64,000 bases of DNA from Malacoraja senta (Eukaryota), in NCBI GenBank assembly GCA_038087875.1, contig CM075991.1, positions 8,620,001-8,684,000 of the forward strand, written 5' to 3'. Under the pieces are notes generated by a model, which worked only from the letters and a program-made list of their open reading frames with translations, did not search any database and was not told the DNA's origin. Positions 949 through 62,656 of this stretch are shown one piece after another (the first letter of the stretch is position 1; every line of letters begins with the position of its first letter). A program made the position numbers and the translations under genes.

Positions 949-1326
949 CAAAGATAGACCACTCCTTCTAAATGCAATGGGCTGACATGTATTAAGCAAC
1001 GGAGCGGAACGTGGGCCTTTTTTTCATCCATTTCCGTAACCCGAACCGACCCGACCCGCAGTGTGATCAACGTTGCGTGGGGAACAGTTTGTGTTAATAA
1101 ATTAAAATTCTGAAAATGAGGAGAAGATTTTTACAAATAACTTTTATTTTTACGAGGATGTTTCAGTAACCGGCTTCCATCTCCGCACTAGTATTCTATG
1201 GGGATCTTTGGTGCGGAGACGGAAGCCGGTTACGGAAATGGGGCCGAAAATGACCCATGAATCTGCCCATGACCGTACTACGTCTTTTTCGTCGAGTGGT
1301 CTATCTTGCTCGCTATCGGATCTTTG
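949..1326. mobile_element. Non-autonomous DNA transposon (P-like MITE), copy 1
   Basis: Ends CAAAGAT.../...GGATCTTTG; 8-bp TSD GGTAACAT (941-948) / GTTAACAT (1327-1334); left TIR internally deleted; near-identical to 6528-6935 and 36394-36788. Confidence 0.85.
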
Positions 1327-6504: not shown

Positions 6505-7265
6505 CTGGATAGAGTGGATGTGGAGAGCAAAGGTCCTATAGCAAGCAAGATAGACCACTCCTTCTAAATGCAATGGGCTGACGTGTAGTACGCAACGGAG
6601 CGGAACGTGGGCCTTTTTTTCATCCATTTCAGCAACCCGACCCGACCCGACCCGACTCGCAGTGTAATCAACGTTGCGGGGGAACAGTTTGTGTTAATAA
6701 ATTGTAATTCTGAAAATGAGGAGAAGATTTTTCCCAAATAACTTTTATTTTTACAAGGATGTTTCCGTAACCAGCTTCCGTCTCCGCACTAGTATCTTTG
6801 CTCCGCTATGGGATCTTTGGTGCGGAGACGGAAGCCAGTTACGGAAATGGGGCCTTAAATTCCCCATGAATCTGCCCATGACCGTACTACGTCTTTTTCG
6901 TCGAGTGGTCTATCTTGCTCGCTATAGGATCTTCGGTGGAGAGGATGTTTCCACTAGTGGGAGAATCTAGGGCCAGAGGTCATAGTCTCAGAATTAAAGG
7001 ACGTTCCTTTAGGAAGGAGAAGAGGAGGAATTTCTTTAGTCAGTGGGTGGTGAATCTGTGGAATTCATTACCACAGATGGCTGTGGAAGCCAAGTCAATG
7101 GATATTTTTATGGCAGGGATAGATAGATTCTTGCTTAGTACGGGTGTCAGGTGTTATGGGGAGAGGGCAGGAGAATGGGGTTAGGGGAGAGAGATAGATC
7201 AGCCATGACTTTATGGCGGAGGAGACCTGATGGGCCAAATGACATAATTCTGCTCTTATTACGTG
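6505..7265 (+). mobile_element. CR1 LINE 3' fragment split by a MITE
   Basis: GGATAGAGTGGATGTGGAGAG|MITE|GATGTTTCCACTAGTGGG; RGHSLRIKG and FFSQWVVNLWNSLP motifs. Confidence 0.85.
6528..6935. mobile_element. Non-autonomous DNA transposon (P-like MITE), copy 2
   Basis: Perfect 8-bp TSD GTGGAGAG (6520-6527 / 6936-6943); ~33-bp TIRs. Confidence 0.9.
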
Positions 7266-33308: not shown

Positions 33309-34110
33309 CTTAGACTTAGACTTAGATTCCTTTATTGTCATTCAGACCTTTTGGTCTGAACGAAATTCCGTTGCCTGCAGTCATACATATAATAAATAAC
33401 AAAACACACAATAAACACAAATTAACATCCACCACAGTGAGTACACAGTGAGTTCACCAGTCTCTGTCTCTTCCCTCTTTGTTCTCCCTCAGCGCTGAGG
33501 CGATCCAGGCTTCTGACGTTGTGACCCCGCCGAGTGATGGTAAGTCAGTCCCGCGGCTGAATCCGAGCTCCGTCCGCGACGGGCCGGTTCAAACTCCGCG
33601 GCCCGGGGTGGCCGAAGCTGCCGAAGCTGCCGCCCTCTAGTCCAGCGGACGCAGCTGGAGTTGCGGGAGCCCCAGAAAAACAGGTCACCCACCTGTGACC
33701 TGCGAGCTCCCGACGATGTCGTCCACCGGGCCCGCGGCCGAGCCTCCGGATTCAGGTCGCCACCAGCGTCCTCGGTCGCCACCGCCGGAACGCCACCGCA
33801 GCCCCGAAGTTGGCCAGCCTCGCGCTGGTAAGTCCTGGCTCTGCCTCCGGAGCCTCGAGGTCGGTCGGTCGCAGTTGGAGTTGGAGGCCGGCAGCTCCGC
33901 CATTTTGGCCTCAGCGCAGACGGAGGCAGAGAAGGGGGATACGACAAGAAAAAGTCGCATTCCCCCCGAAGGAAGAGACAAAAATCATGTTTCACCCACC
34001 CCCACCCCACCCCACACTTACACAACCCAATAAACTAAAATTTAACTATACAGGACAAAAGAAAACAAAAAAAAAGTAAAAACAGACGGACTGCAGGCGA
34101 GCCGCCACTT
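33309..34110 (-). mobile_element. Non-coding GC-rich non-autonomous retroelement with Rex-type tail
   Basis: 5' GGCGGCTCGCCTGCAGTCCGTCTGT; 3' hairpin CAGACC-AAAA-GGTCTG, AATGACAATAAA and (TCTAAG)n; inserted in a (CA)n tract. Confidence 0.62.
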
Positions 34111-36393: not shown

Positions 36394-36788
36394 CAAAGAT
36401 CCTATAGCGGAGCAAGATAGACCACTCCTGCTAAATGCAATGGGCTGACGTGTAGTACGCAACGGAGCGGAACATGGGCCTTTTTTTCATCCATTTCCGT
36501 AACCCGAACCGACCCGACTCACAGTGTAATCAACGTTGCGGGGGAACAGTTTGTGTTAATAAATTTAGATTCTGAAAATGAGGAGAAGATTTTGACCAAA
36601 TAACTTTTATTTTTACGAGGATGTTTCCGTAACCGGCTTCCGTCTCCGCACTAGTATCCTATGGGATCTTTGGTGCGGAGACGGAAGCCGGTTACGGAAA
36701 TGGGGCCTTAAATTACCCGTGAATCTGCCCATGACCGTACTACGTCTTTTTCGTCGAGTGGACTATCTTGCTCGCTATAGGATCTTTG
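36394..36788. mobile_element. Non-autonomous DNA transposon (P-like MITE), copy 3
   Basis: TIR CAAAGATCCTATAGCGGAGCAAGATAGACCACTC / GAGTGGACTATCTTGCTCGCTATAGGATCTTTG; TSD CTTTTGTC / CTTTTGTT. Confidence 0.9.
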
Positions 36789-39849: not shown

Positions 39850-40660
39850 TCGGAGCTCAAAATTAACGAACAAATTTACCACTTGCAACATTGGCATGCG
39901 TGGAATCACGCGGCTCTCCGCACTGTTCTCACTCCCTGTCTTCCAGCGAGCAGCCGTAGTCAGCATCGAAGCCGCGTCTCTGGCGCTATAAGCAAGAGCG
40001 GAACTCGCTATCGAAAGATGGAGGGGATGGGGGACACAAATTTTTGGTGTCCGCGCGCGCACGCGCACACTCACACACACGCACGAGGCTTCAGAGGCTC
40101 AATCCAGCGCTAAATGCAGCTCAACTCTGCCTGTATCACCGGGTTAACTACAGCCCTGGCTGGACTGACGGGATACCAGCGCTGCTTCTCCGCGCTGGCC
40201 ATATTTCCCGCAAGTCCAGCAAGGGCTGTAGGCTCACCTGGCGGGACAGGCAGAGTTGACCTGGTTTAGCGCTGCTTCTCTGCGCTGGCTGTGGGCCTGG
40301 GGGGCACCTCGCCGGTCTGATTCCCCACCAAAGATCCTATAGCGGAGGATCTTTGCTGCCGACCTCTCTGGCCACCCGTGGGGGGGGGGCCACTCAGGTG
40401 GGGACGGGACAGCTCCGGAGACCCGGCCGGGATCGATCCTGCCTGCGGATGAGGCGCAGGTCTGTGCCACGTCTCCCTCCTCCAATCGCCGCGCTCTATC
40501 CTCAGGCCCACCCCCCCACTCCTCCCTCCTCCAATCATCGCGTTGAATTATCATGTCCCGCCCCCATTGCCTGCTGACCGACGTCTCTCTCGTCCAATCG
40601 GCGCCCTCGATCTTCAGTCCCACCTCCACTGTCTCGCGGAAAGCGGAGATTTCATCGGGT
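39850..40660 (-). promoter_or_regulatory. CpG-island promoter with putative non-coding first exon
   Basis: Non-repeat CpG-dense block; CCAATC at 40482, 40531 and 40594; GC box CCCGCCCC at 40557; E2F site TTTCCCGC at 40204-40211; minus-strand donor CAG|GTGAGC at 40238/40237. Confidence 0.6.
40329..40355. mobile_element. 27-bp remnant (fused ends) of the P-like MITE
   Basis: CAAAGATCCTATAGCGG + AGGATCTTTG are the exact left and right termini of 36394-36788. Confidence 0.8.
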
Positions 40661-40824
40661 TTTAAAATCCGGATCACAAAAACTTGGGGGGGATGTCCCC
40701 CACCTCTCAAAACATGGGGGGGGGGACTTGTCCACTCTGGCCCCCCCGGGTTTTCCGCTCCTGGCTAAGACAGCAACTCTACCACTGCGCCACCCGAAAC
40801 TGAGCTTACTTCGAATCAGTAGTA

Positions 40825-41465
40825 AGGAAGGCAAATTCAATGCTAGCATTTATATCAAGAGGACTGGAATACAAAAACAGAGATGGAACACTGAGGCTCT
40901 ATCGGGCGCTGGTCGGGCCGTATTTGGAGTACTGAGAGCATATTTGGGCCCCATATCTGAGGAAGGATGTGCTGGCTCTGGAGATGGTCCAGAGAAAGTT
41001 TACAAGAAAGATTCCAGGGATGAGTGGGTTCGCATATGATGAGCGTTTGACAGCACTGGGCCTCTACCCGCTGGTGTTTAGAAGGTTGAGGGGGGACCTT
41101 ATTGAAACTTACAGAATAATGAAAGGCATAGATAGAGTGGATGTGAAAAGGATGTTTCCACTGGTGGGAGAGTCTAGGACCAGAGGCCATCGCCTCAGAA
41201 TTAAAGGGCTCTCTTTTTGAAAGGAGGTGAGGAGGAACTTCTTTAGTCAGAGGGTAGATAATCTGTGGAACTCATTGCCACAGAGGGCTGGGGAGGCCAA
41301 GTCAGTGGATATTTTTAAGGCAGGGATAAACAAATTCTTGATTAGAACGGGTGTCCAGGGTTATGGGGAGAAGGCAGGAAAATGGGATTAGGAGGCAGAG
41401 ATGGTGGAGTAGACTTGATGGGCCGAATGGCCTAATTCCACTCCTATACCTTGTGAACATGTGAG
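40825..41465 (+). mobile_element. CR1 LINE, 5'-truncated
   Basis: VQRKFTRKIPGM..RLRGDLIETY..TRGHRL; tail. Confidence 0.88.
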
Positions 41466-42094
41466 CTGGTCCCATTTGCCTGCATTTGGCCCTTATCCTT
41501 CTGGGCCTTTTCTATCCATGTATTGTTCTAAATGTCTTTTAAACATTATAATAATACCATCCCCACGGCTTCCACTGCCGTTCGTTCTATATGCGTATCG
41601 CCCTTTGTGGTAAAAAGTTGCCCGCTCATGACCCTTTCAAATCTTTTGAACCCCGCAAGCACTTGCTCGGAGTAAGTTTCTTTTCCTCCATTATACACCC
41701 TAATCCTACAATTACCTTAGATTCAAGCTTGTTAATTACTACCCATTAAGTTATCAGATTCTTTCTGTTCAACTGATCCAGAAGTTTCACGATTCCACAT
41801 ACATTCAACATCCTGACAATCTTCCAAAGAAATGCATCCCAACACAGAAAACGTTTTCACTAAAATATTAAAATCTTTTATATTAGAACTAGCTCACGGG
41901 GAAATCGTTATATCAACGATTATAAAATAGTATCAGTATTTCCAGTTCAGTAAGTTTCTCATAAGCCACCTTCAAATGAGCAGAAAGCAGACATGAAACA
42001 AGGGCAGAGAATGCTTGGCTTTGAAATTTGTGCACATTCTCTTTCCACTGGGGATATTGTGTTTTGGAAGCACAATGATTTTCTAAGTCAGGCT

Positions 42095-42185
42095 GACATA
42101 AATGCTGGAGAAACTCAGCGGGTGAGGCAGCATCTATGGAGCGAAGGAAATAGGCGACGTTTCGGGTCGGGACCTTTCTTCAGAC
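42095..42185 (-). mobile_element. Solo 91-bp pLTR/hammerhead unit
   Basis: 15-bp TSD TTTCTAAGTCAGGCT (42080-42094 / 42186-42200). Confidence 0.75.
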
Positions 42186-42745
42186 TTTCTAAGTCAGGCT
42201 TGTCAGTCTGAAGAATCAATTCAATTCAATTCAATTCAATTCAACTTTAATGTCATTGCACAAATACTGAGTATGGGTACAACGAAATGCAATTTTGCGT
42301 CAGTCCGTAGTAGTAGTGCAATATAGAAATTTAAAAAAAAATTAAAAAATTAAAATAAATTAAAAAAAAGAGGATACAGAATAATCAAAAATACAGAATA
42401 ATTAACAATGGGGACGGAGGGACCGGAGGAATCTATCGGCGGGACTCCGAGTTCAGCAATGCGACGGTATAATTGTGGAAGCTGTTCCTCATCCTACTGG
42501 TACGAGACCTGAGGCTCCTGTACCGCCTCCCTGATGGGAGGAGGGCAAACAGTCCATAGTTGGGGTGGGGAGGCTGCCTGACCCATTGAGTTACTCTAGC
42601 ACTTTGTGCCTTCGCTAGTAAATCATCATCTGCAGTTCCATATTTCTACTTTCTATGATCCTCTGCATTTATCGGATATTCTTGCCTCCATTGGAGCATG
42701 TTGGCCAAGGACTAAGAACACCTTTTGGCCAGGGTAATTCCACTT

Positions 42746-43257
42746 ACTCCCCCGTTGGATTGCAACCTTGTCGTGGTCGGGGAGCGTGTGTGTCTCAGTG
42801 ACCCCTAGAGCTATGCCAGCGGGAGATTCGTCTCCTATTAGGGTCTCCCATGCTGGACAGGTCGAAGGGTAGAGGCGAGACGAAGAGCGATCCACTGGTC
42901 CTCCAGGTTGGAGGTTGAGTACGGGGCTAACAACCCTGTCTCGTAGAACAAATATGTTACGGAAACAGCAACTGAAGGAATCAACACTACTGGCCGTGAT
43001 GGACTTCCAGGGCTATCGACAGATGCTGGGATGAATACAGCATCCCAAGAATAGCCCTGCACTGGACACCGGAAGGGAAAATGAAAAGAGGGAGAACCAA
43101 AACCACCTGGCGTCGAACTGTAGAGGAGGAAATGAAAACAATGGACCTGACCTGGGGTAGTGTCCAGAAGCTAGCCCAGAACAGACAGGAGTGGAGGACC
43201 TTCATTGCTGCCCTACATGCCAGGAGGCTGAATAGGAAATAAGTAAGTAAGTAAGTC
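42746..43257 (+). mobile_element. Bipartite non-autonomous RTE element
   Basis: RTE-type 5' UTR (CAACCTTGTCGTGG..GGGCTAACAACCC) fused to the ORF end SIPRIALHWTPEGKMKRGRTKTTWRRTV..AQNRQEWRTFIAAL and a (TAAG)n tail; TSD ATTCCACTT / ATTTCACTT. Confidence 0.82.
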
Positions 43258-43455
43258 ATTTCACTTGCCGAAGAGGGTCAGAATTGGCTGAAATTCCTTT
43301 GAAGACTACCTACGGCATAGGCTCCCATTATTAGTTATCTAAAGACACAAAAAGCTGCAGTATACCCCTCCATTGAACTTTGTCTGAAGAAGGGATCCGA
43401 TCCGAAACGTCACCTATTCCTTTTCTCCACAGATGCTGTCTGACCCGCTGAATTA

Positions 43456-43640
43456 TGGGCCTGTCCCACTTAGGCAATTTTTTTAGGCGACTGCCGGCGA
43501 ATACGACAATGGAATTCACCGAAGTCAGCATCGGCGACAACCTATGTCACCTGGCAACCACCTACAAATCCTGGCGACAATCTACGACTGCACCTACGTC
43601 TGTAGTCGCCTAAAAAATAGGCCTAAGTGGGACAGGCCCT
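43456..43640. mobile_element. PIF/Harbinger-type MITE (185 bp)
   Basis: TTA TSD (43453-43455 / 43641-43643) within a pLTR. Confidence 0.85.
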
Positions 43641-43676
43641 TTACTCCAGCTTTTTGTGTCTGAAGATAAGGTAACA

Positions 43677-44015
43677 TGTTCCCGATGTTGGGGGAGTCCC
43701 AGAACCAGGGGCCACAGTTTAAGAATAAGGAGTAAGCCATTTAGAACGGAGTCGAGGAAACACTTTTTCTCACAGAGAGTGGTGAGTCTGTGGAATTCTC
43801 TGCCTCAGAGGGCGGTGGAGGCAGGTTCTCTGGAGGCTTTCAAGAGAGAGCTAGATAGGGCTCTTAAAAATAGCGGAGTCAGGGGATATGGGGAGAAGGC
43901 AGGAACGGGGTACTGATTGGGGATGATCAGCCATGATCACATTGAATGGCGGTGCTGGCTCGAAGGGCCAAATGGCCTACTCCTGCACCTATTGTCTATT
44001 GTCTATTGTCTATTG
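43677..44015 (+). mobile_element. CR1 LINE 3' fragment
   Basis: TRGHSLRIR..FFSQRVVSLWNSLP; (CTATTGT)n tail. Confidence 0.88.
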
Positions 44016-45572
44016 TTAATTCAGCCCGGACTCATGTAGGCTTGAAAGGCTTCTTTGATTCTCTGCTTCCTTGAACCTTCTGTGACAAGGTTGTCCAGGC
44101 CAAGCTGTCCATGTGGCACAAACATGCACCATAGGGTTAACACAGCCAAGGCAGGCTCCTTCTGACACAAAGGACCCATTTCAATTTTCACCGTCAATAG
44201 CCATTTCGTAGCGAAAAAGCCGCACATCGTGAATAAAGCCTACAGGCCTCTGAATAAAAATCACTCTGACCTAAACTTCACGTCTATTAATTTCAGCAGC
44301 AATAAGCTTCAGATGAATGCAGGTGTCCATTTGAGCAGCAAGTTTCATGCTGCTTCCCCGAGCAGTGAACAATGACCTGTCCACATATATTTTAGTGCCT
44401 TAGAGCAGGGAAACAGGCCCTTTAGTCCCATCTTGTCTCTGCCAAGCAAGTTGGCACACCGGGCTAGTTCCATTTACCTGCATTTGGCCCATAACCTTGC
44501 CAAACCTTCAGAACGGGTGTCTGGAGATACCACACCAGCCCAGGTGACTATGTGCCTGCCCGCCACTGAAGCAGATCTAAGATTCAAGATTCAAGAGAGT
44601 TTATTGTCATGTGTCCCTGATAGGACAATGAAATTCTTGCTTTGCTTCAGCACAACAGAACATAGTAGGCATTGACTACAAAACAAAATATGTGTCCATA
44701 TACCATTATATAAATATATACACACATCAATAAATAAACTGATAAAGTGCAAATAACAGATAATGGGCTATTAATGTTCAGAGTTTTGTCCGAGCCAAGT
44801 TTAATAGCCTGATGGCTGTGGGGAAGTAGCTATTCCTGAACCTGGTCGTTGCAGTCTTCAGGCTCCTGAACCTTCTACCAGAAGGTAGCAGGGTAATACA
44901 AGCACATATTACAATCACTCCACACTCTTAAATCTCTACTCCTACAGCAACATTTCCTACTACACTGTAAATGGCTTGAGTGTAATCAAGTGGACACAGA
45001 AAGCTGGAGTAACTCAGCGGGACAGGCAGCATCTCTGGAGAGAAGGAATGGGTGACGTTTCGGGCCGAGACCCTTCTTCAGACCGATTGTGATCATGCAT
45101 TGTCTTCAATGCCGACTGGATAGCACGCAACAAAAGTTTTTCACTGTACCTCGGTAATAAACTAAACTGGAATTGAAGCTGAGAGAGTCAGGCTGGAGAT
45201 CCAGTGTGGTCTGTGTGGAGTTTGCATGTTCTTCGTTTCCCCGGGTGCTCAAGTTTCCTCCACTTCCCAAAATCGAGCTGGTTGGTCAGTTAGACGGGCG
45301 GCTGTAAATCGTTCTTAGTGTCAAGGTGCATGGTGAGAATCTGAGGGAAATTGATGGGAATGCTGGGAGAAAGGGTCAAGGGGGAACTAACGGAAGAATA
45401 GGATTGAAGATTCAAGATTCAAGAGAGTTTATTGTCATGTGTCCCAGACAGGACAATGAAATTCTTGCTTTGCTTCAGCACAACAGAATATAGTAGACAT
45501 TGACTACAAAACAGATCAGTGTGTCCATATACCATTATATAATGTACATTATATACAGTGTGTCCATATACC

Positions 45573-46042
45573 GATCTACATCGGTGAGACCAAGCGGAGG
45601 CTTGGCGATCGTTTCGCCGAACACCTCCGGTCGGTCCGCAATAACCAACCTGACCTCCCGGTGGCTCAGCACTTCAACTCCCCCTCCCATTCCGTATCTG
45701 ACCTCTCTGTCCTGGGTCTCCTCCATGGCCACAGCGAGCAACACCGTAAATTGGAGGAAATGCACCTCATATTCCGCTTGGGCAGTCTACATCCTGGGGG
45801 CTTGAACATTGAATTCTCCCAATTCTGCTAGCCCTTGCTGTCCCCTCCCCTTCATCAGCCCTCTGGTTGTCTCCTCCCCTCCCCCAGCCCTCGGGCTCCT
45901 CCTCCACCTTTTTTCCTTTTTTCCTTTCTTCTCCCCACCCCCTATCAGTCTGAAGAAGGGTTTCGGCCCAAAACGTTACCTATTTCCTTCGCTCCATAGA
46001 TGCTGCTGCACCCGCTGAGTTTCTCCAGCATTTTTGTGTACC
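45573..46042 (+). mobile_element. Penelope-like element, 5'-truncated: GIY-YIG endonuclease end, UTR and pLTR
   Basis: Open frame 45577-45831 YIGETKRRLGDRFAEHLRSV..PVAQHFNSPSH..RKLEEMHLIFRLGSLHPGGLNIEF; hammerhead-type core at 45950-45977 with GAAA mutated to AAAA. Confidence 0.9.
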
Positions 46043-46292
46043 TACCATTATATAAATATATACACACATGGATAAAGTTCTGAGTGTTTTCCAATCAGAA
46101 GCCTTGGATGAACTTTGAGATCCGCACTCTTCTGAAGACCAGACACCGGGCATTCATGTCTGATGCTACAGTGGTCTACAAGAAGTCCAGATACGAACCT
46201 TGGTAAGGCCACCATAAAGAATGTTCCGATGGCTAGCATAGACCCAATGGATCGAACGGCCTTCTTCTGTGCGATAAGGAAATATGAAATCG

Positions 46293-46586
46293 AGGCGGCA
46301 CAGTGGCGCAGTGGTAGAGTTGCTGCCGTACAGCGCCAGAGACCCGGGTTCGACCCCGATTATGGATGCTGCCTGTGTGGAGTTTGGATGTTCCTTCCGT
46401 GGGTTTTCTCCAGGTGCTCCGGTTTCCTCCCACACCCAAAGACGTACAGGTTTGTTGGCTACTTGGCTTGGCTAAAATTGTAAATTGTCCATAGTGTGTG
46501 TAGGATGGTGCTAGTGTGTGGGGATCGCTGGTCGGCGCGCTGATGGGCCGAAGGGCCTGTTTCCGTGCTGTATCTCCAACTAAACT
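46293..46586 (+). mobile_element. HE1-type V-SINE, full length
   Basis: Head GGCGGCACAGTGGCGCAGTGG..GGTTCGACCC, V-domain and tail. Confidence 0.85.
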
Positions 46587-47284
46587 GAAGGTGTTTGGGA
46601 TAACGCTGGCACGTTAAGCTGCCGCTGCTCTCTCTGAATAATGTGTTGTTGATGGCCCTACTTTTTTTTTGTTTTATTCTGCTTATATGTTTTGTAATCT
46701 GCTTATTAAATTTTGTAAGGCGTCCTTGAGAGTCTTTGACAGGCGCCCACAAGTATAATGTTAATAATAAATAATAATAATAATAATATATCCAAGGTAT
46801 ACTTGTGGCTTCATGTACAGAGAAGGTTTCTTCCTGTTCCAGTCCACTGGTGTTAATCCTTTCCTTAATGAGCTCCCCACAATAACCTGGGTATTCTGCA
46901 GCAGCCCAGAGAGACAGACACAACGCCTGCCCACACACTACACTCCATGGCTCAGGTGATCGGGGGGAAGGCAAACATCACCTCCACCCCATTGATTCCA
47001 GCCGACAGGGCAGCGGGAAGGGAAGGTCATAGCTAGTAACCTGGAGCACTGGAGAACTGAGAAATGAACAATGTCACAGAGTCTTACAACACGATCTGGA
47101 AACTAACTCTAAACTCTGAACTCTCAGCACCGCCTCCCCACAGCGGCACATTCGCCCAGCCACGGCTTCACAACTCATGGTTTGTTACAGGTGGAAGCAG
47201 CAGGTCTTTTCCTTCCCCACCCCCTCTATAACTCTCTCTCTCCTCTCCTCTATCATTCTCTCACTCTCCCCCATAACACACACA

Positions 47285-47287
<3 letters not shown>

Positions 47288-47329
<42 letters not shown>

Positions 47330-47655
47330 CCTCTCCCTCTCCCTCTCCCTCTCCCTCTCCCTCTCCCTCTCCCTCTCCTCTCTCTCTCCCTCTCCCTCTC
47401 CCTCTCCCTCTCTCCCCCTCTCCCCCTCTCCCCCTCTCTCCTCTCTCCCTCTCCCTCTCTCCCTCTCTCCCTCTCTCCCTCTCCCTCTCCCTCTCCCTCT
47501 TCCCCTCTCCCTCTCCCTCCCTCTCTCCCCCCCTCTCTCTCTCTCCCCCTCTCCCTCTCCCTCCCTCTCTCTCTCTCCCCTCTCTCTCTCTCTGTTCCTG
47601 TCTCTCTCTCTCCACCTCTCTCTCTCTGTCCCTGTCTCCCACTCCCTCTCTCTCG
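47288..47655 (+). repeat. (CT)n/(CTCTCC)n pyrimidine tract
   Basis: Directly visible. Confidence 0.95.
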
Positions 47656-47689
47656 CTCACACCCCCCCTCACAGTGGATAGATACTCTC

Positions 47690-48077
47690 AGTAGTTGGCC
47701 CCCCTATCGGTCATGACTGACCATGGGTGATGCATCCTGGTCAGATGCAAGCCTGGGCGATGTCATATGGAGGACAGGCTGTTGCCCCATGCTGCACGTC
47801 CCCCCCTCTCCATGTCGCTGATCGATCCAAAGGAACAGCAGGGCCGTTACGGTTTGGCACCAGCGCCGTCGCAGGAGCTGCCAGAGCGAGGTTGTAGACA
47901 ACGACGAACTGCCTTAGGGGCTCCGACTCCGGATTTTCTTGAGGTTTACTCCTGGAGCCTTTTCCATGACTGGATATGGCCACAAGGCAGCGGATGTTTT
48001 AATCAGAGTTTTCCCCTTCCCAGGCTGACGAGCCCCATCCGCCCGAGACTCGTGGGGGCGGGAGCGTCTACCTTCCC
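47690..48077 (-). mobile_element. Short non-coding RTE-like derivative
   Basis: 5' part GGGGCTCGTCAGCCTGGG..GGAAAACTCTGA resembles RTE 5' UTRs; ends ..GATAGGGGGGCCAACTACT like an RTE tail. Confidence 0.45.
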
Positions 48078-48749
48078 ATGCAGGTCTACAGCACCTGCCC
48101 ACTGCCCAACACACCAACACACACAAACAGCAACAAAGGGACTATTTGGCCAGGTACACCCCCCACTCCCCCACCCACCTTCACACGCCGGGACTTGCGC
48201 CCTGTCTGTGTCTGTGACTGTGAGCTTCACACCTGCAGTGACATTGACAAATGTCAGATGGACCCGCGCCTGCCAGCATGGCTGAGAGAGTCTGTGACGG
48301 ACATCGCTTGGTGCTGACAGACTGGTAGTGTGTGACGAGTGGTTTGTGGAGGCTGCGTTCGAGTGAGGTCTGGGCTCTGGCCGCCTGGTGTTGATGTGTA
48401 ACCTGCCCATTCTCGGCACGGTGCGGACCAGAGCCAGCCCGGCTCACACAAAAGCCTTTACTTCAGACAGGGTTCAATCGCACTGTCCCAATGCCACAGC
48501 AGCACCTCCCCACAAGGTAAAAATGACGGCATCACAAACAAAGCAGGAACGAGGTCCTTGTGACGAGCTGACATATCCATCATTCAGACAAGGCTGGAAG
48601 GCCTTCATCAGTGTGTATTGCGAGCGCTCACACGGGCATGATCAGAATTCAAACAGCTTCAGCAGGCTTAGCTTGTAACGCACGTCTCTGGTGGGAAGCT
48701 GCACTCACTCATATCTCCCCTGCCCCTTCCTCCATCTTCTATTCTCCTA

Positions 48750-49012
48750 TTTTAGTTTAGTTTAGAGATACAGCGCGGAAACAGGCCCTTCGGCCCACCG
48801 GGTCCGCGCCGACCAAGCGATCCCCGCACCCTAACGCTATCCTACACACGCTACGGACAATCTACACTTACGTCAAGCCAATTAGCCTACACACCTGTAC
48901 GTCTTTGGAGTGTGGGAGAAACATGCGGTCACTGGGGGGAACGTACAAACTCCGTAGTCGGGATCGAACCCGGCTCTCCGGTGCTCCATGCAACTCTACC
49001 GCTGTGCCACCC
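48750..49012 (-). mobile_element. HE1-type V-SINE
   Basis: Consensus match with (TTTAG)n tail. Confidence 0.78.
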
Positions 49013-49600
49013 ATAATCTTAAAGCACTGACTCCAACGTTAGCAGCCTCTCTGCCTCATATCATAAAGAAGCTCGAAGGGCCGAATGGCCTACTCCTGCA
49101 CCTATTGTCTATTGTCTATTGTCTATAAGCTGCATTCATATATCAGACAACTGCACCATCCTACCACAACCAGAGAGCGGTCCTGAACTACTATCTATGT
49201 CATTGGTGACCTTCGGACTATCCTTGATCAGACCCTGCACTCAATGTTATTCCCTTATCATGTATCCGTACACTGTAAATGGCTCAATTGTAATCACGTA
49301 TTGTCTTTCTGCTGACTGGATAGTACATGTTGCAACACAAGCTTTTCACTGCACCTCGGTACGCATGACATAGACACATAGAAACATAGAAAATAGGTGC
49401 AGGAGTAGTCCATTCGGCTCTTCAAACCAGCACCGCCATTCAATATGATCATGGCTGATCATCCAGAATCAGTACCCCGTTCCTGCTTTCTCCCCATATC
49501 CCTTGATTCCATTAACCCTAAGAACTCTCTCTTGAATACATCCAGCGAATTGGCCTCCACTGCCTTCTGTGGCAGAGAATTCCACAGATTCAGCAACTCT

Positions 49601-50594
49601 TTTAAAAATATATATTTTTATTAGAAGCATGTATACAAATAATAGTAAGCGACAATTTAATTACAGATTTCTTACATAGCTTCAGTTAAAAAAAAATTGT
49701 TTTTAAAGAATAAAGATAAAGAGAGAAAAAGACGAGAGAAACTAATAGAGAGAAAACGGAGACACAAAAGGAAACTACAAATAACGAGATTGTGGAGATA
49801 GATCCAGGAACTGTTGAGTATCAGAATCAAATACACAGGACAAGATGTTAAGGTCCCTTGTGCCAATAGGTGGGGAGCATTTCACGACATTCGTTGATTG
49901 TTGAGAGTGGTGGACGCTCAACATCGGGGGGGGGGGTAACCTTCAGGACAGTTGGGCACAGGACACATCATCAGTAGTGTACCCTTGCATCACTGGGTGT
50001 TTCGGCCTTTTAACACTATACACCCTCCACAAGGGCGGCCCGCTGCAGGATGATCAACCCTCAGCGCATGTCCCGTGTCAAACCGTCCCGAAGATTCACC
50101 CCGACATACTCGGGGCCCAGCATGGGTCTTTCCGCTTGAGCCAAATCCACCGGCTGCTTCTTTCAGCCGCCTCTGAGAGTGATCTTATGGTCTTCCGCAG
50201 AGCCTGACCGTGGATTCCAAGCTCCTTCAGCAGTCTGATGGTAGATGACGCAACAAATCCTCTGCATCCCACTTCAACTGGATAGACTTTGGTGTTCATC
50301 CAATCCCAAACTCAGGTTTCAACCCTGATTTTGTGTTAAAACAATTCAACTTTTCAAATATTCAATAAATGGAGAGCATATTCCAACAAATAATTCTGGT
50401 TTGTCAATTAAGACAAATCTTATTTTTTCCAAATGCAAGGTCTCAGTCATTTCCGTAATCCACATCGCGGGGGCTGCTGTTTTTTCCCAAAATTTTAGTA
50501 TTAATTCTTTCGCAGTTATTAGACTGTAATCAAGAAATTGTCACTAACTTATCGTAAAGTTTGTGCTATGTTCTGATAATCCTAATATTATTCA
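49601..50594 (-). mobile_element. L1 LINE 3' fragment inserted in CR1 (49370-50760)
   Basis: LILKFWEK..MWITEMTETLHLEKIRF..PFIEYLKS* (L1 ORF2 end; stop at 50346-50348); TSD about ATTCA(G)CAACTCT. Confidence 0.75.
49807..50299 (-). mobile_element. Hero/R2-superfamily non-LTR retrotransposon 3' fragment nested in the L1
   Basis: ORF 50096-50299 PVEVGCRGF..LGI.G..AAERSSRWIWLKR matches the end of a restriction-like endonuclease domain. Confidence 0.8.
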
Positions 50595-53500
50595 TATTCA
50601 CAACTCTATGGCTGAAAAAGTTTCCCTCATCTCAGTCCTAAATGGCCTACCCCTTATTCTTAAACTGTGACCCCTGGTTCTGCACGATGTTTTTCCAACA
50701 TGGGGAACATTTTTCCTGCATCTAGCCTGTCCAATCCCTTAAGAATTTCATATGTTTCTCGTATAAACCAAACTGAACTGAACCCGTTAAGGTCAAGCGG
50801 AGTTAGCTGTCGTGGACACAAGTACGGCGGGGGTGCAAGATGAGGGTGAAAATCCTGGCTTGAGGCAGCACCGCAGGCAGGTGGATTTAGACACAAGAAT
50901 CGCACACAAGAAATAAAACAAACTAGACGTAGAATTGACCAAAAGAAAGACCACGCAATAAAAAAAGCAAGACATTCGAGCAGGAAAGTACGGGCTGAGT
51001 TTGGAGTCTGCGGCTGGCGAGCTGGGCCTACGATACGATAAGATAATGATAAGATAGAACGTTATTTATCCCAGGAGTGGAATTGATCTGCCAGCAATCA
51101 TAAAAACACAAAATACATGAAATTAAAGTGGAAAGGATTGGGGATGTGCAAAGATTTGGGGGAGGGTGGGGGGGAGAGTGGGTGGGGGGGGGGAGTCAGT
51201 CTATCCCACGACAGAAGGGGGAGGAGTTGTACAGTTTGATAGCCACAGGGAAGAAGGATCTCCTGTGGCGTTCTGTGCTGCATCTTGGTGGAACCAGTCT
51301 GTTGCTGAAGGTGCTCCTCAGGTTGACCAGTGTGTCATGGTGGAGGACATGGCGCAAGGAGCATAGCCTGCATGGCAGGTCCAGGCCAGCTAGAGGGGCT
51401 AGGCCCCTCTCGCTGAGATACTCCCGACCCCAGGCTCACCGGGATACTAATTAGAAAAATACAACAAGTCCATGGTAGAGCAAGAGGTGCAAGCGACTAG
51501 TGTAGCTGGGACATGTGGGCTGGTGTGGGCAAGTTGGGCCGAAGGGCCTGTTTCCACAATATATCACTCCACGACTATGACTCTAAGAGGTGACCGAGGT
51601 AGGACAACAATGTCACACCTCACAGATGTGGTTATTAAGTGCTGAGCCACATAAAGATGTCAGATTGATGTAACGCTTGGAACAGATGTAATATGGGTCC
51701 CCAGATAATAATTGCTCCTTAATGGATCATTTTGCTGAACACTTGCGCTCAGTCCGCCAAGGCCTGCTGGATCTCTCGGTTACTAAATATTTTAGTTATC
51801 CCCGTACTGACCTTTCTGACCTGGCCTCCTCCATCTGCCAGAGGGAGGCCACATGCAAACTGGAGGAACAGCTCCTCATATTAGGGGCGGCACAGTAATG
51901 CAGCGGTATAGTTGCTGCCTTACAGCGCCGGAGACCCAGGTTTGCTCCTGACTACGGGAGCTGTCTGTGTGGAGTTTGTTTGTTCTCCCCGTGACCGTGT
52001 GGGTTTTCTCTGGCTTGCTGCGGTTTCCTCCCACAGGCGTACAGGTTTGTAGGTTAATTGGCTTTGGTGAAACTGTGCATTGTCCCTCATGTGCAGGATA
52101 GTGTTAGTGTTGGTGGATCACTGGTCTGCACTGCCTCGGTGGGCCATATAACAATATAACCAAATAACAATTACAGCATGGAAACAGCCATCTCGGCCCT
52201 TCTAGTCCGTGCCGATCACTTACTCTCACCTAGTCCAATCTACCTGCACTCAGACCATAACCCTCCATTCCTTTCCCGTCCATATACCTATCCAATTTAT
52301 TTTAAATGATAAATGGAGAACCTGCCTCCACCACTTCCACTGGAAGCTCATTCCACACAGCTACCACTCTCTGAGTAAAGAAGTTCCCCCTCATGTTACC
52401 CCTAAACTTCTGTCCCATGTTTTTCTAAAGCACTGTATCTCTAAAGTCTAAAATTTAATTTCATCTGCCTGCACATGATCCATATCCCTGTGTTCTTTGT
52501 GTTCACAATGGGGGGGGTGCACAGGAGCCAATCGTAGGTTTAATTTAGTTTAGTGCAGAAACAGGCCCTTCGGCCCTCCGATCCCCGCACATTAACACTA
52601 TCCTACACATAGCAGGGACAATGTTTACATTTGTACCAAGCCAATTAACCTACACACCTGTACGTCTTTGGTGTGTGGGAAGGAAACTGAAGATCGCGGA
52701 GAAAAACCCACGCAGGTCACGGGGAGAGCGTGCAAACTGCGTACAGACAGCACGTGCAGTCGGGACTCTACCGCTGCGCCACAATGCTGCCCTGGGTGTA
52801 CGCTCCAGCCCAACCCTGCCGGTCGCTTCTACAGAAAACACTACCAAGGCTGCGCACGGGAGCAGAGAGGGAGAGTGGGGAAGAAAAAGATGGGGCGGTG
52901 GGGGAGAAAGGAATTTTTTTTTTTTGTAGGAAGTTAAATAGAAGATGACCTACAATTATAAAATCCATTGAGGCCAAGTCAATGGATATTATTAAGGCCG
53001 AGATTGACAGATTCTTGATTAGTATGTCCATGTCAGGGGTTATGGGGAGAAGGCAGGTGAATGGAGTTGGGAGGGAGAGATAGATCAGCCATGATTGAAT
53101 GGTGGAGTGGAATCGATGGACCGAATGGTCTAATTCTGCTCTTATCCCTTATGAACTTATGAACTACAACGTCATGCAACCCATGACACTGGCTGGACAT
53201 TTTTTTTTCTTCACATTTTAGTGTTTTTCAGTAAATCATCTGCAACGCACAACTAATATTGGCGTCAGGGAAATAGTGATAAAATTCCTCATGCCATCTG
53301 TAGTTGTAGGCCTGCCAGTTATTTATAACCCCTGCTGTCTGGCCAAGCACATTTGTTGTCATGGTCCTTAAAGGGACTCTACTCCTCTTTCACTTGTAGT
53401 GAGCTGTGCTTAAGATTTTGTGATATAAATTTTTATTAGAAGCAAACATATTACAATGTAGAGTAACATATTATAATAGAAGAAAAAACTTTTCATATAC

Positions 53501-53694
53501 ATCAATCACTCATAGATTATTAAATTTGTCAATTGTCAGTCAATTCTGCTTCTAGTGTTTTTTTTTAATATAGATAGAAAAAGAAAAATAGAGAGAAAGA
53601 AGAAAGAAGAGAGAGAAAGAAGAATTACAATATCAAAAAAGAAAAAGAGGTGGAATGAATAACTTATAATACGTCATAGGAGCTTAAGATTTTA

Positions 53695-54062
53695 AGGGCC
53701 CTGTCCCACTTACGCGACCTTTACAGGCGACTGCCGGCTCCCGTCAAAAGTTTCAGCAAGTTGAAAATTCAGCGGCGAGCAGAAAGACGCCAGGACTCTT
53801 TGGAGACCTCTCACGACCACAGGAGACCTCTCACGACCATACAGGCGACTCCTGGTGACATGTTGCGGGAGACCTCTCACGACCACAGGAGACCTCTCAC
53901 GACCACAGGAGACCTCTCACGACCATACAGCCTGTGGTGGTGAGAGGTCTCCAAAGAGTCGTAGCGTCTTTCTGGTGGCTGCTGAATTTTCAACATGTTG
54001 AACATATTGTGCGACCTATGACGGCAGTCGCCTGTAAAGGTCGCGTAAGTGGGACAGGCCCT
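53695..54062. mobile_element. PIF/Harbinger-type MITE
   Basis: TTA TSD; long TIRs; internal GGAGACCTCTCACGACCACA repeats. Confidence 0.85.
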
Positions 54063-54176
54063 TTAGCAAAGAGGGTTTCACTCCAGAGGCCGCGTGTTTT
54101 GGGAGAAATTCTGATACGTTATGCTTTCTCCTATTTTCTTATGAATAATGGGACGTAATTCTGAGGCTTTAGAAGG

Positions 54177-54702
54177 CACATAGAAACATAGAAACATAGA
54201 AATTAGGTGCAGGAGTAGGCCATTCGGCCCTTCGAGCCTGCACCGCCATTCAATATGATCATGGCTGATCATCCAACTCAGTATCCTGTACCTGCCTTCT
54301 CTCCATACCCCCTGATCCCTTTAGCCACAAGGGCCACATCTAGCTCCCTCTTAAATATAGCCAATGAACTGGCCTCGACTACCCTCTGTGGCAGAGAGTT
54401 CCAGAGATTCACCACTCTCTGTGTGAAAAAAGTTCTTCTCATCTCGGTTTTAAAGGATTTCCCCTTATCCTTAAGCTGTGACCCCTTGTCCTGGACTTCC
54501 CCAACATCGGGAGCAATCTTCCTGCATCTAGCCTGTCCAACCCCTTAAGAATTTTGTAAGTTTCTATAAGATCCCCTCTCAATCTCCTAAATTCTAGAGA
54601 GTATAAACCAAGTCTATCCAGTCTTTCTTCATAAGACAGTCCTGACATCCCAGGAATCAGTCTGGTGAACCTTCTCTGCACTCCCTCTATGGCTATAATG
54701 TC
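54177..54702 (-). mobile_element. CR1 LINE, 5'-truncated
   Basis: IEGVQRRFTRLIPGM..; (CTATGTTT)n tail. Confidence 0.9.
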
Positions 54703-55652
54703 AGACCACATCAGTTTAGTTTATTGTCACGTGTACTGGGGTACAGTGAAAAGCTTTTGTTGCGTGCTAACCAGCCAGCAGAAAGACAATACATGATTAC
54801 AATCGAGCCATTAAACTTAAAGATAGCGGAGTCAGGGGATATGGGGAGAAGGCAGGAACGGGGTACTGATTGGGGATGATCAGCCATGATCACATTGAAT
54901 GGCGGTGCTGGCTCGAAGGGCAGAAATGGCCTACTCCTGCACCTATTGTCTATTGTCTATTGCAGTGTATAGATGCATGATAAGGGAATGTGTGTGAAGG
55001 AACTGCAGATGCTGGTTAAAACCGAAGAGTGGGAAAAGAAACTGCAGTAACTCAGCGGGTCAGACAGCATCTCTGGAGAAAAGGGATAGGTGACGTTTCG
55101 GCGGGGGGGGGGGGGGGGTTCCCCGCAAAAATAGGTGGGAATCTAGGTGGGGCACAAGAGAGGAGAGGAGGGGAGAAGAAAAAGAGGGGGTGTGTGTGGG
55201 AGAAATAAAAAGGGGGTTGTGTGAGGGGGTTTAGTGGGAGGTTACCGACTGACTATCTATTTACAGAAGGAAAAAGAAATTGGCTCAGGTCAATTACAGA
55301 GGGTGTGTGTGGTGATGGGTGGGGGAGGACACATTTGGTATGAATGTGTACTCTATACAGAGGTCCATGTTAACAAGAATGGAATTTTCCTGCCAAGTGC
55401 AGATTACCGCAAGATACGCTATTAATTTCAATTGCACTATAGAATATTGGCAAAATCTCCAACCATATCATGAAAATATAACAAGTAACAGAATTACTCA
55501 CCATGTTAAAGCAACATTGATCACAATCTCTGGGCGTTCAGGTCCAACTGTAAATGTTGAAATGAAGCACACTGCGGTTTAAATATGCAACTCTGTCCCG
55601 TCAAACCCTCCAAGGTTAGCCAGAGGCTGTAAATATCCATCAACACTGCCAT

Positions 55653-56415
55653 TATTATCTAAATGGTGGCCGATTAGGAAAAGGGGAGATGCAGCGAGAC
55701 CTGGGTGTCATGGTACACCAGTCATTGAAAGTAGGCATGCAGGTGCAGCAGGCAGTGAAGAAAAGCGAATGGTATGTTAGCTTTCATAGCAAAAGGATTT
55801 GAGTATAGGAGCAGGGAGGTTCTACTGCAGTTGTACAGGGTCTTGGTGAGTCCACACCTGGAGTATTGCGTACAGTTTTGGTCTCCAAATCTGAGGAAGG
55901 ACATTATAGCCATAGAGGGAGTGCAGAGAAGGTTCACCAGACTGATTCCTGGGATGTCAGGTCTTTCATATGAAGAAAGACTGGATAGACTTGGCTTATA
56001 CTCGCTAGAATTTAGGAGATTGAGAGGGGATCTTATAGAAACGTACAAAATTCTTATGGGGTTGGACAGGCTAGATGCAGGAAGATTATTCCCGATGTTG
56101 GGGACGTCCAGGACAAGGGGTCACAGCTTAAGGATATGGGGGAAATCCTTTAAGACCGAGATGAGAAAAAACTTTTTCACACAGAGAGTGGTGAATCTCT
56201 GGAACTCTCTGCCACAGAAGGTAGTTGAGGCCAGTTCATTGGCTATATTTAAGGAGGGAGTTAGATGTGGCCCTTGTGGCTAAAGGGATCAGGGGGTATG
56301 GAGAGAAGGCAGGTACGGGATACTGAGTTGGATGATCAGCCATGATCATATTGAATGGCGGTGCAGGCTCGAAGGGCCGAATGGCCTACTCCCTGCACCT
56401 ATTTTCTATGTATCT
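55653..56415 (+). mobile_element. CR1 LINE, 5'-truncated
   Basis: RDLGV motif and ORF 55774-56283; near-identical to 23604-24249. Confidence 0.92.
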
Positions 56416-56461
56416 AACACGGTCTCGTTGACTGTAGGGCTCCCTGGGTTACAAAGACGTC

Positions 56462-56740
56462 CACGGTGGCGCAGCGGTAGAGTTGCTGCCTCACAGTGCC
56501 GGAGACCCGGGTTCGATCCTGACTACGGGTGCTGTCTGTACGGAGTTTGTACATTCTCCCCTGACCTGCGTGGGCTTTCTTCGAGATCTTCGGTTTCCTC
56601 CCACATTTCAAAGACGTACAGGCTTGGTATAAATGTAATACAATTGTCCCTAGTGTGTGTAGGATAGTGTCAATGTGCGTAGATCGCTGCCTACTCGGTG
56701 GGCCAAAGGGCCTGTTTCCACGCTGTATCTCTAAACTAAC
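56462..56740 (+). mobile_element. HE1-type V-SINE
   Basis: Consensus match. Confidence 0.85.
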
Positions 56741-57042
56741 ATCAGAGGGTCAGGGAGCATCTCTGCAGAAAAGGAATAGGTGACTTTTCCGGGTCGAGAC
56801 CCTTCATCAGACATGTCTTGGATCTAGGTCAGGAAGAATTAGACCAGGGGGGATAGGATGGATGAAGGCAATCTGAAGAAAGGACTCTGCCTGAAACGTC
56901 AACCTAATCCTTTTCTTCTAAGAATAAGGAGTAAGCCATTTAGGACTGAGATTTTCAACCCAGAGAGTTGTGAATCTGTGGAATTCTCTGGCACAGAAGG
57001 CAGTGGAGGCCAATTCACTGGATGTATTCAAGAAGAGAGTTA

Positions 57043-57856
57043 AGGGGCCGTCCCACGTAGGCGGTTTTTCTGAGGACCGCCGGCGAGTGTCAAGTTCGCG
57101 GCACTCGCCTGAAAAAACGGGAACTGGAACGCGACTGTCAGAGTGGAGCACACACACACAAACACATGGCAAAGGCGGGGGCCAGGGAAAGCGGGGGGGG
57201 GGGGGGGGCGCTGTCTGAAATTCACACGGTGCAAAGCCAAGGTGATACACACACACACCGCGATGAACAGGAAGGTTCAGAGGGCAAGCACAGTGTACGG
57301 GAAGTTGTTTAAAAGGGGGGAGAAGGGGGGAGAGGGGGGAGAAGGGGGGAGAAGGAGTGGAGACACTTTTATGAAGCCAGACAACTTTAATCCAGAGATA
57401 CACAGCTGTGAAGTTCGGCGGGCATTTAACATTACCGGTCGGTTCTCCTTGGTTCTGAAAACCTCGTGCTTATGTTTTTTTCCCCCCCAATGAGCCAATG
57501 AGAGGCCCGGGTCAGCAAAGGCAATTAATTAAAACTGCCTACGACTAGCTCGACTAGCTATAACTACATGGCGACCCCACTACAACCTGCACCCATGACT
57601 ACAAAAGTATCGATTTTCTCCATGGCGGCCATGTTGAAAAATTGGTGCCGATTTTCTCCATGGCGGCCATGTTGAAAAATTTGTGGTGACCATACTGAGG
57701 CCTTGACTAGTTCCCAGAATGCTGGGAACTCCTCGCGACCATGAAGGAGACTAACCAGAGACCACCAGCGAACATGAGGCGACCATGTGGTGACCGTGTG
57801 GCGAGTGCAGAGTCTCCTGCACTCGCCGAAAAAGTCACCTAAGTGGGACAGGCCCT
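57043..57856. mobile_element. PIF/Harbinger-type non-autonomous element (814 bp) in CR1
   Basis: TTA TSD splits the CR1 sequence GAGAGTTAGATATAGC; same TIR family. Confidence 0.85.
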
Positions 57857-58285
57857 TTAGATATAGCTCTTTGGGCTAACGGAATCAAGGGATATGGGGA
57901 GAAAGCAGGAACGGGGTACTGATTCTGGATGATCAGCCATGATCATATTGAATGGTGGTGTTGGCTCAAAGGGCCGAATGGTCTGCTCCTGCACCTATTT
58001 CTAATTTTCTCTGGTTCTTCAGAGATGCTGCCTGACCTGCTGAGTTGCTTCCAGCATTTGTGTCTATCTTCGGTGTAAACCAGCATCTGCAGTTCCCTCT
58101 TACTCCTTTAGGCACTGCACAGGCTAGGTGCAGAGAGTAAATACATCTGACTAATAATGACCCACATCATGTACAGTACTATCAAACAGCATCAATAGCA
58201 ATGGAAGTCAACCCAAATAGACCTGCCTCAGGTCTATATAATTAAAATGAATGCCTGCTTTTGGAGCGGAATCTCATCTGCTCAG

Positions 58286-58485
58286 NNNNNNNNNNNNNNN
58301 NNNNNNNNNNNNNNNNNNNNNNNNNNNNNNNNNNNNNNNNNNNNNNNNNNNNNNNNNNNNNNNNNNNNNNNNNNNNNNNNNNNNNNNNNNNNNNNNNNNN
58401 NNNNNNNNNNNNNNNNNNNNNNNNNNNNNNNNNNNNNNNNNNNNNNNNNNNNNNNNNNNNNNNNNNNNNNNNNNNNNNNNNNNNN
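58286..58485. other. Assembly gap (200 N)
   Basis: Run of exactly 200 N, probably a placeholder for a gap of unknown size. Confidence 0.99.
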
Positions 58486-61420: not shown

Positions 61421-61614
61421 GGAGATCATAGTTGCTCCACAGTGGACAATATTCCAAGCTCATTGGCTTTACAAGAAGGTCAGAATCAAGATGGTCTGGC
61501 CACCAGTGTTTGCTCAAATATCACAGGAGCTTGCTGGCTGAAAAGGAAAAGGGAGAAATTTCATGAGGTCATAAGTGATGAGTAGAATTAGGCCATTCGG
61601 CCATCGCCCACTTG

Positions 61615-62656
<1,042 letters not shown>

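What the first reader, a model, noticed from the sequence alone, without database searches (positions are those of the whole stretch)
40329..40355. Probable P-element-type excision footprint inside the CpG-island promoter/first exon
Seen: the 27 bp are the first 17 nt of the MITE left end (CAAAGATCCTATAGCGG) joined to the last 10 nt of its right end (AGGATCTTTG), with an AG microhomology at the join. The 8-bp flanks TTCCCCAC / CTGCCGAC match at only 5 of 8. Established: Drosophila P transposase cuts with a 17-nt stagger, so end-joining leaves up to about 17 nt of each TIR, and P elements favour promoter regions; hAT excision does not normally leave TIR sequence. Inference: a P-type (THAP9-related) transposase excised this element in this germline and left a scar in a likely 5' UTR.
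Basis: partly seen in the sequence, partly recalled or inferred. Interest (0 to 1): 0.8.

Follow-up and report, generated by a model that had tools for sequence, protein, structure and literature searches.

The report
Transposon scar riding inside another transposon
These 27 bases are the two ends of a small jumping element joined between a duplicated 8-base target, but they sit inside another high-copy repeat rather than in any promoter shown here, were likely copied around the genome with that repeat, and likely come from a P-element-type cut, though no transposase was found to prove it.

Summary
The 27-mer is real: the fused left and right ends of a 380-410-bp MITE with three full copies in the window. 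Reads from other copies show the empty site with one CTCCCGAC, so the '5 of 8' flanks are a decayed true 8-bp duplication. The setting is misread. The 'CpG island' is a 771-bp high-copy TIR element nested in a SINE tail, and no host gene was found. Dozens of contigs in three organisms carry this insertion junction, and one spans the remnant without gaps in a second organism, so the scar is likely old and was multiplied as a passenger, not cut at this locus. P-type cleavage is the leading mechanism but unproven. The left arm matches 19 nt, not 17, so the AG microhomology and a strict 17-nt ceiling cannot both hold. Two remnants with the same end in invertebrate-like DNA (33 and 44 bp, one with a 7-bp duplication and an insert repeating its own tail) look like P repair junctions. 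No transposase was found; hAT-type gap repair stays open.

The parts
40329..40355 (+). Fused-end remnant of the CAAAG MITE: 17-19 nt of left end plus 8-10 nt of right end, AG shared
   Evidence: spanned without gaps by a 182-nt contig of run X2, organism B (table 8 record 10)
40321..40328 (+). Left copy of the 8-bp target duplication (TTCCCCAC; family state CTCCCGAC)
   Evidence: table 3: 40326 C>G in 66, 32 and 28 contigs of X1, X2, X4; 40321 T>C in 54, 18 and 15
40356..40363 (+). Right copy of the target duplication (CTGCCGAC)
   Evidence: empty-site joints and loose ends at 40303 show the 8-mer once (tables 5, 5c, 7)
39993..40763 (.).
   Evidence: high depth in X1, X2, X4. 'hAT-like' is a recalled resemblance of its TIR to Tol1/Tip100, not tested
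39949..39992 (+). SINE tail, left half; ends in GCTATAAG, the left copy of the host element's 8-bp TSD
   Evidence: loose ends at 39992 continue as SINE in X1, X2, X4, X22
40764..40795 (+). SINE tail, right half; begins with the right TSD copy lacking 2 nt (GCTAAG)
36394..36788 (+). Full 395-bp MITE, 34-bp TIRs, TSD CTTTTGTC/CTTTTGTT, inserted in another repeat
   Evidence: 16 of 50 window hits span its rejoined flanks; folds at z -11.7
6528..6935 (+). Full 408-bp MITE, perfect TSD GTGGAGAG, inserted in a LINE-like tail
   Evidence: 3 of 6 window hits span its rejoined flanks
949..1326 (+). 378-bp MITE, TSD GGTAACAT/GTTAACAT, left TIR shortened by a deletion between AAGAT repeats
6784..6819 (-). 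Internal reversed copy of the MITE's own end in the loop of a long hairpin (9 nt shorter in the other two copies)

Best explanation
The 27 bases are the fused ends of a CAAAG-family MITE between a duplicated 8-base target inside a high-copy host element, likely left by end-joining after a P-type staggered excision and then likely multiplied as a passenger of that host. Steps. (1) Shown: the MITE family makes 8-bp TSDs, and one inserted at CTCCCGAC inside a copy of the 771-bp host element. (2) Inferred: its transposase cut out the element leaving single-stranded tails of about 17-20 nt of each TIR on the donor; end-joining kept one tail nearly whole, trimmed the other to 10 nt and probably annealed at AG. 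(3) Inferred from read data: this happened once, in a founder copy, before organisms A, B and D split; the host's own transposition then spread remnant plus TSD to many loci. (4) Shown: one such host copy sits in a SINE tail here. No function is implied.
For: Both TSD copies are kept around TIR-only sequence, which is the P donor-site product: 17-nt 3' tails between the 8-bp duplication, joined at 1-3-nt microhomologies or with templated inserts (PMC2895639, passages of Tables 1-3). hAT excision puts hairpins on the flank and leaves a random footprint (PMC3878927, passages). Of 8 metagenome hits to the 18-19-nt end, 2 come from one assembly, lie in animal-like DNA, and are both short remnants. 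L011 is 33 bp and reads as 17+16 or 18-20|13-15. L014 is 44 bp, reads as 17+10+17 with the insert repeating the tail's TAGCGA, and has a 7-bp direct repeat, a TSD size known in the P superfamily (PMC3698922, passages). Controls: 0 of the other 53 collection loci has a second end of 10 nt or more, and 3 of 53 have a bare CTTTG. Passenger spread: C>G at 40326 in 66, 32 and 28 contigs, carried by over 97% of summed depth in each of X1, X2 and X4, with depth rising toward the remnant; a gap-free 182-nt contig across it in X2.
Against: No transposase tied to these TIRs was found. CA..TG ends and 8-bp TSDs with T at position 2 (4 of 4 sites) and A at position 7 (3 of 4) also fit the hAT target NTNNNNAN. 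The left arm runs to 19 nt and L011's to 20 nt, over the Drosophila 17; a 17|10 reading is a blunt join, which was 1 of 68 and 2 of 25 junctions in two fly mutant sets. L011 and L014 were found by a pattern that demanded 18-19 nt, so their arm lengths are biased; L011 has no clean TSD; L014's other end matches the MITE left end at only 10 of 19 and its family consensus is unknown. The MITE is deletion-prone without excision (949 left end; 9-nt internal loss). RNA reads of organism B show 0 depth over 40316-40347 and 4 empty-site reads, so remnant-bearing copies are a minority there or are not transcribed. Summed contig depth is no copy number, and only 15 of 219 joints and 24 of 1582 loose ends were shown, so host copies with a full MITE at this site are not excluded.
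Confidence: 0.5

Rival explanations
1. Same history as a passenger, but the remnant is an internal deletion of the MITE: abortive gap repair after excision by any transposase (hAT included), or slippage across the stem-loop, joined at the 2-nt AG microhomology. Arm lengths would then say nothing about cleavage geometry.
For: The AG overlap is explained without coincidence (19|8), and L011 has a 2-nt overlap as well. The MITE folds into a very stable stem (z -11.7) and shows deletions in its TIR and hairpin. Abortive gap repair with microhomology is described for Ac, P, Tc1 and Mutator (PMC3814204, passages). Ends and TSD fit hAT.
Against: All three remnants are 27-44 bp with arms ending at 17-20 nt although the TIR is 34 bp. 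The best microhomology available, the 6-nt CTATAG, was not used, though this does not separate the two models sharply. L014's 7-bp repeat and tail-repeating insert fit P-type end-joining better.
Confidence: 0.35
2. CTCCCGAC in the host element is an insertion hot spot, and many copies were hit and emptied independently, each giving a similar remnant.
For: X2 shows variant junctions: a tandem return from 40355 to 40322 and a rearranged join 40289 to 40343. The site fits the family's T2/A7 preference.
Against: The X2 contig across the site has no gap, so its remnant has the same length as the window's; independent repairs vary widely in length.
Confidence: 0.1
3. One reading: a THAP9-related transposase excised the element at this locus, in this lineage's germline, leaving a scar in a gene's promoter or 5' UTR.
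For: The stretch meets numeric CpG-island values and holds three CCAAT-bearing repeats.
Against: It is a repeat nested in a SINE; other repeats in the window have higher CpG o/e (MITE 1.23); no gene was detected; the junction recurs in many contigs and organisms. RNA reads cover the host on both strands and not the unique left flank, but organism B's DNA does not cover that flank either, so the RNA test is inconclusive for this locus.
Confidence: 0.04

Closest known systems
Drosophila P element donor-site repair junctions (17-nt 3' tails; PMC2895639, PMC7776569)
   Same: TIR-only remnant between both copies of an 8-bp TSD; one arm near full tail length; 2-nt microhomology; in L014 an insert repeating the tail
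   Different: Arms match 19-20 nt, not 17 at most; transposase unknown; a fossil found inside another element rather than a fresh excision
P-MITEs and vertebrate P-like non-autonomous elements (Anopheles P-MITEs PMC1562414; medaka Izanagi PMC2820524; zebrafish Pdre PMC10983969)
   Same: Non-coding, CA..TG ends, 27-34-bp TIR as in Anopheles P and Izanagi, 8-bp TSD
   Different: No THAP or transposase remnant in this MITE; TIR sequence unlike the two printed (Izanagi, Pdre2); carries an internal copy of its own end in a hairpin
hAT MITEs (Ac, hobo, Tol2 type; PMC3878927)
   Same: 8-bp TSD with the NTNNNNAN pattern; CA..TG ends
   Different: hAT excision by itself leaves no TIR bases; a 7-bp repeat flanks the related remnant L014
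MITE miniaturisation by abortive gap repair and microhomology (Ozma-derived Gnome, Elf, Goblin; PMC3814204)
   Same: Both ends kept, interior lost, short homology at the join
   Different: Those joins use 6-8 nt and give mobile MITEs; here 2 nt and 27 bp in all, spread only as a passenger

Membership tests
P superfamily (P, 1360, Galileo, THAP9-type) | THAP-domain DDE transposase encoded between the TIRs of an autonomous partner | not testable with these tools
   No whole genome held; collection scans gave no long element; none among 232 window ORFs
P superfamily (P, 1360, Galileo, THAP9-type) | 7-8-bp TSD | tested here: met
   8 bp at 4 of 4 window sites (8/8, 7/8, 7/8, and the remnant via its empty site); 7 bp at L014; none clean at L011
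P superfamily (P, 1360, Galileo, THAP9-type) | CA..TG termini with TIR of about 27-31 bp | tested here: met
   CAAAG..CTTTG, 34-bp TIR; not specific, hAT ends fit too
P superfamily (P, 1360, Galileo, THAP9-type) | Donor-site remnants capped at 17 nt per end | tested here: inconclusive
   n = 3; arms 17-19|8-10, 17-20|13-16 and about 17-18|17-19; two were ascertained on 18-19 nt; all readable under 17 only with coincidences
P superfamily (P, 1360, Galileo, THAP9-type) | Insertion preference for promoters | tested here: not met
   3 of 4 window insertions lie inside other repeats; a small sample, and a tendency rather than a strict criterion
hAT superfamily | 8-bp TSD, NTNNNNAN target | tested here: met
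   T2 at 4 of 4 and A7 at 3 of 4 window sites; the Drosophila P target core has the same T2/A7 pattern (recalled)
hAT superfamily | hAT transposase in the autonomous partner | not testable with these tools
   as above
hAT superfamily | Excision footprint without TIR bases (hairpins on the flank) | tested here: not met
   27 TIR bases are kept; this excludes simple hAT end-joining, not gap repair after hAT excision
CpG-island promoter / first exon | Single-copy, CpG-rich sequence at a transcript start | tested here: not met
   High-copy TIR element in a SINE; transcript start at this locus not testable with run X22

The most novel reading that the evidence does not exclude
An undescribed P-superfamily family with a conserved 19-20-nt end was active both in cartilaginous-fish-like genomes and in an invertebrate, cuts with a stagger of 17-20 nt (possibly longer than the Drosophila 17), and has left countable footprints, one of them amplified inside another MITE. 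Natural footprints would then give a read-out of P-type cleavage geometry outside Drosophila.
Probability: 0.35. Interest if true: 0.55.

Novelty: new member of a known kind. Interest (0 to 1): 0.3.

Why it matters
As a locus it matters little: a dead scar in nested repeats with no shown gene. As a family marker it is useful. The papers read give the 17-nt stagger for the Drosophila enzyme only; the zebrafish THAP9 section read reports excision but no cut positions. If the family is P-type, counting arm lengths of its remnants in one assembly would test whether the long stagger holds across the superfamily and whether its length varies. The shared end in an invertebrate-like sequence raises horizontal transfer. 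It also shows that GC-rich MITEs in this kind of genome mimic CpG-island promoters.

Tried and rejected
Whole-genome count of remnants: no genome held; the records of L011 and L014 are not searchable. Other remnants in the window: a lenient search gave 9 places, of which only 40329 is a MITE remnant; most of the rest belong to an unrelated palindromic repeat. Viral contigs: 6 hits to the 16-mer, all without a second end; 0 hits to a fused-end pattern. Prokaryote genomes: 0 hits to the 18-19-mer and 41 to the 16-mer, none with a second end of 10 nt or more; these served as chance controls. Six of the 8 metagenome hits (L007-L010, L012, L013) were set aside as chance because they have no second end. 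Pfam on 232 ORFs: no transposase; three sub-threshold hits (DUF6583, TORC_M, Promethin) were disregarded. Literature: the TIR string search gave 1 paper, on gut microbiota, seen only in the listing and not opened; searches listed no paper on P elements in cartilaginous fish; one search gave 0 papers. Subscription papers, Repbase/Dfam and supplements were not seen, so the family may already be catalogued. Earlier-findings look-ups gave nothing on this genome or sequence and only unrelated genomes by words. Rejected: that the 5-of-8 flanks argue against a TSD; that the 27-mer is chance (expected about 7e-6 for the 17-mer alone).

Full report
Observation. Its first 17 nt occur exactly at one other place, 36394, the left end of a 395-bp element with 34-bp TIRs; with up to 3 mismatches there are 8 matches against 0.17 expected. 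Three full copies of that MITE lie at 949-1326, 6528-6935 and 36394-36788, 91% alike by column, each with an 8-bp TSD at 7/8, 8/8 and 7/8. The remnant matches the left end for 19 nt and the right end for 10 nt, overlapping by AG. So 17|10 is one of three readings, and the AG can only have served as microhomology if at least 19 nt of the left end were present. Under a strict 17-nt tail it is a coincidence given by 1 of 14 possible right-arm lengths.

Setting. The GC-rich stretch is not shown to be a promoter. It is bounded by 11-bp inverted repeats at 39993-40003 and 40753-40763. It splits a SINE tail that is continuous in other window copies: 15 of 19 hits to the rejoined flanks cross the junction, and the split site is duplicated (GCTATAAG left, the same lacking 2 nt right). 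Laying three contig sets and one RNA run on 39900-40830 gave 14,397, 11,287 and 10,697 contigs and 313 reads. Summed depth over the element is 1e4 to 9e5, against 25, 0 and 19 on the unique left flank. The element is thus a high-copy repeat in organisms A, B and D. Its CpG o/e of 0.73 is lower than that of the MITE (1.23) or of three other GC-rich stretches of the window (0.95-1.2). Pfam on 232 ORFs of 48 aa or more, nearly all from sequence not repeated within the window, gave one match above cut-off, in a LINE-like ORF; short exons could be missed. That the genome is skate- or ray-like is recalled from its repeats and was not tested. That the host is hAT-like is a recalled TIR resemblance.

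Empty site. Other host copies lack the remnant. The joint 40303 to 40359 appears in 7, 9 and 8 contigs of X1, X2 and X4 and in 4 RNA reads, with 19 letters in place of 55 (a net 36: 27 + 8 + 1 in a G run). Loose ends at 40303 in 50 and 53 contigs and 12 reads carry CTCCCGAC once. The flanks are therefore a true 8-bp duplication that has since taken three changes.

Age and spread. At 40326 the family letter G appears in 66, 32 and 28 contigs, with 58,886 of 59,153, 8,909 of 9,158 and 3,452 of 3,481 summed depth. In X1 depth rises from 14,572 at 40309 to 59,153 at 40326, toward the remnant, so these contigs are probably anchored on it. One 182-nt contig of organism B spans 40206-40387 with 13 differences and no gap. 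I infer a single old event in a founder host copy followed by passenger amplification. Limits: summed depth is not copy number; only 40 of 229 difference rows, 15 of 219 joints, 24 of 1,582 loose ends and 24 of 36,852 pieces were shown; copies with a full MITE at this site are not excluded. Against abundance: RNA reads of organism B (about 6% of the run) have zero depth on 40316-40347 and about 19 just left of it.

The same end elsewhere. A metagenome scan for the 18-19-nt end gave 8 loci. Six have no second end. L011 and L014 share an assembly prefix and lie in animal-like DNA (an ORF that looks like an Ig-domain exon and a split ORF that looks like a Harbinger transposase, both by eye), and both are short remnants. 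L011 is 33 bp: 18-20 nt of left end plus 13-15 of right end, or 17+16 if two substitutions are allowed; it has no clean TSD. L014 is 44 bp with a 7-bp direct repeat: one MITE end of 17-18 nt, about 10 nt that repeat the tail's TAGCGA, and a diverged CAAAGA end. Among the other 53 collection loci, none has a second end of 10 nt or more and 3 have a bare CTTTG. The pattern demanded 18-19 nt, so these arm lengths are biased upward and shorter footprints were invisible.

Mechanism. P transposase cuts with a 17-nt stagger and makes 8-bp TSDs (PMC7776569, passages). Its repaired donor sites keep both TSD copies and parts of the two tails, joined mostly at microhomologies or with templated inserts; blunt joins were 1 of 68 and 2 of 25 in Rad51-mutant sets (PMC2895639, passages including parts of Tables 1-3). 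hAT excision hairpins the flank and leaves no such TIR bases (PMC3878927, passages). Three remnants of 27-44 bp with arms ending near 17-20 nt, a 7-bp TSD (known for 1360 and Galileo; PMC3698922, passages) and a tail-repeating insert make P-type cutting my leading reading, about 0.55-0.6 for the mechanism and 0.5 with the passenger history. If microhomology was used, the tail was 19-20 nt rather than 17. The main rival, abortive gap repair or stem-loop deletion in any superfamily (PMC3814204, passages), explains AG directly and fits a family that folds strongly and shows other deletions. Ends and TSD do not decide: T2 at 4 of 4 and A7 at 3 of 4 sites fit the hAT rule and, from recall, the P target core too. 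No transposase was found by any route.

Comparison and novelty. It works like a P donor-site scar; membership of the P superfamily is untested on its defining feature. P-like non-autonomous elements are known in mosquito, medaka and zebrafish (PMC1562414 and PMC2820524, passages; PMC10983969, passages and section 6). My searches listed no description of this TIR or of P elements in cartilaginous fish, but they cover open-access text only, not Repbase, Dfam or supplements. Verdict: a real feature, a new member of a known kind, in an ordinary setting; interest 0.3, rising to about 0.55 if a genome-wide count shows a sharp arm-length ceiling and a P-type partner.

Noticed in passing
window 6784-6819 and 36624-36700: The MITE carries a reversed copy of about 28 nt of its own end in the loop of a long internal hairpin whose arms would meet as a perfect palindrome without it; two of three copies have lost 9 nt of it. 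It may record an old self-insertion or fold-back.
   Followed up: partly
L011 2962-2994; L014 4937-4980: The same 18-20-nt end occurs in invertebrate-like DNA from one metagenome assembly, both times as a short fused remnant; possible horizontal transfer or a conserved end.
   Followed up: partly
L014 4937-4957 versus window 6777-6800: L014's second end resembles the MITE's internal end-like motif more than its true left end, hinting at a second end type in the family.
   Followed up: partly
window 40322-40355 and 40289-40343 (run X2): Variant junctions in organism B: a tandem return from the remnant's end to the left TSD (depth 144) and a rearranged join with a second GATCTTTG (depth 372, one contig).
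   Followed up: no
window 949-955: The left TIR of one MITE copy lost 18 nt between two AAGAT repeats yet keeps its terminus and TSD.
   Followed up: partly
window 3520-4098, 33500-34096, 17600-18050: Other CpG-rich stretches (o/e 0.95-1.2); the first two share a tail of about 100 bp, so they are probably repeats too and not promoters.
   Followed up: no
window 58286-58485: A 200-N assembly gap; the ORF beside it (58489-58701, minus) looked transposase-like by eye but had no Pfam match.
   Followed up: partly
window 59948-61420 and 61575-62900: A 15-bp-unit tandem array followed by a long GA microsatellite.
   Followed up: no
L014 1491-4291: A split Harbinger-like transposase with a second ORF on the opposite strand, unrelated to the remnant; named by eye, not scanned.
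   Followed up: no
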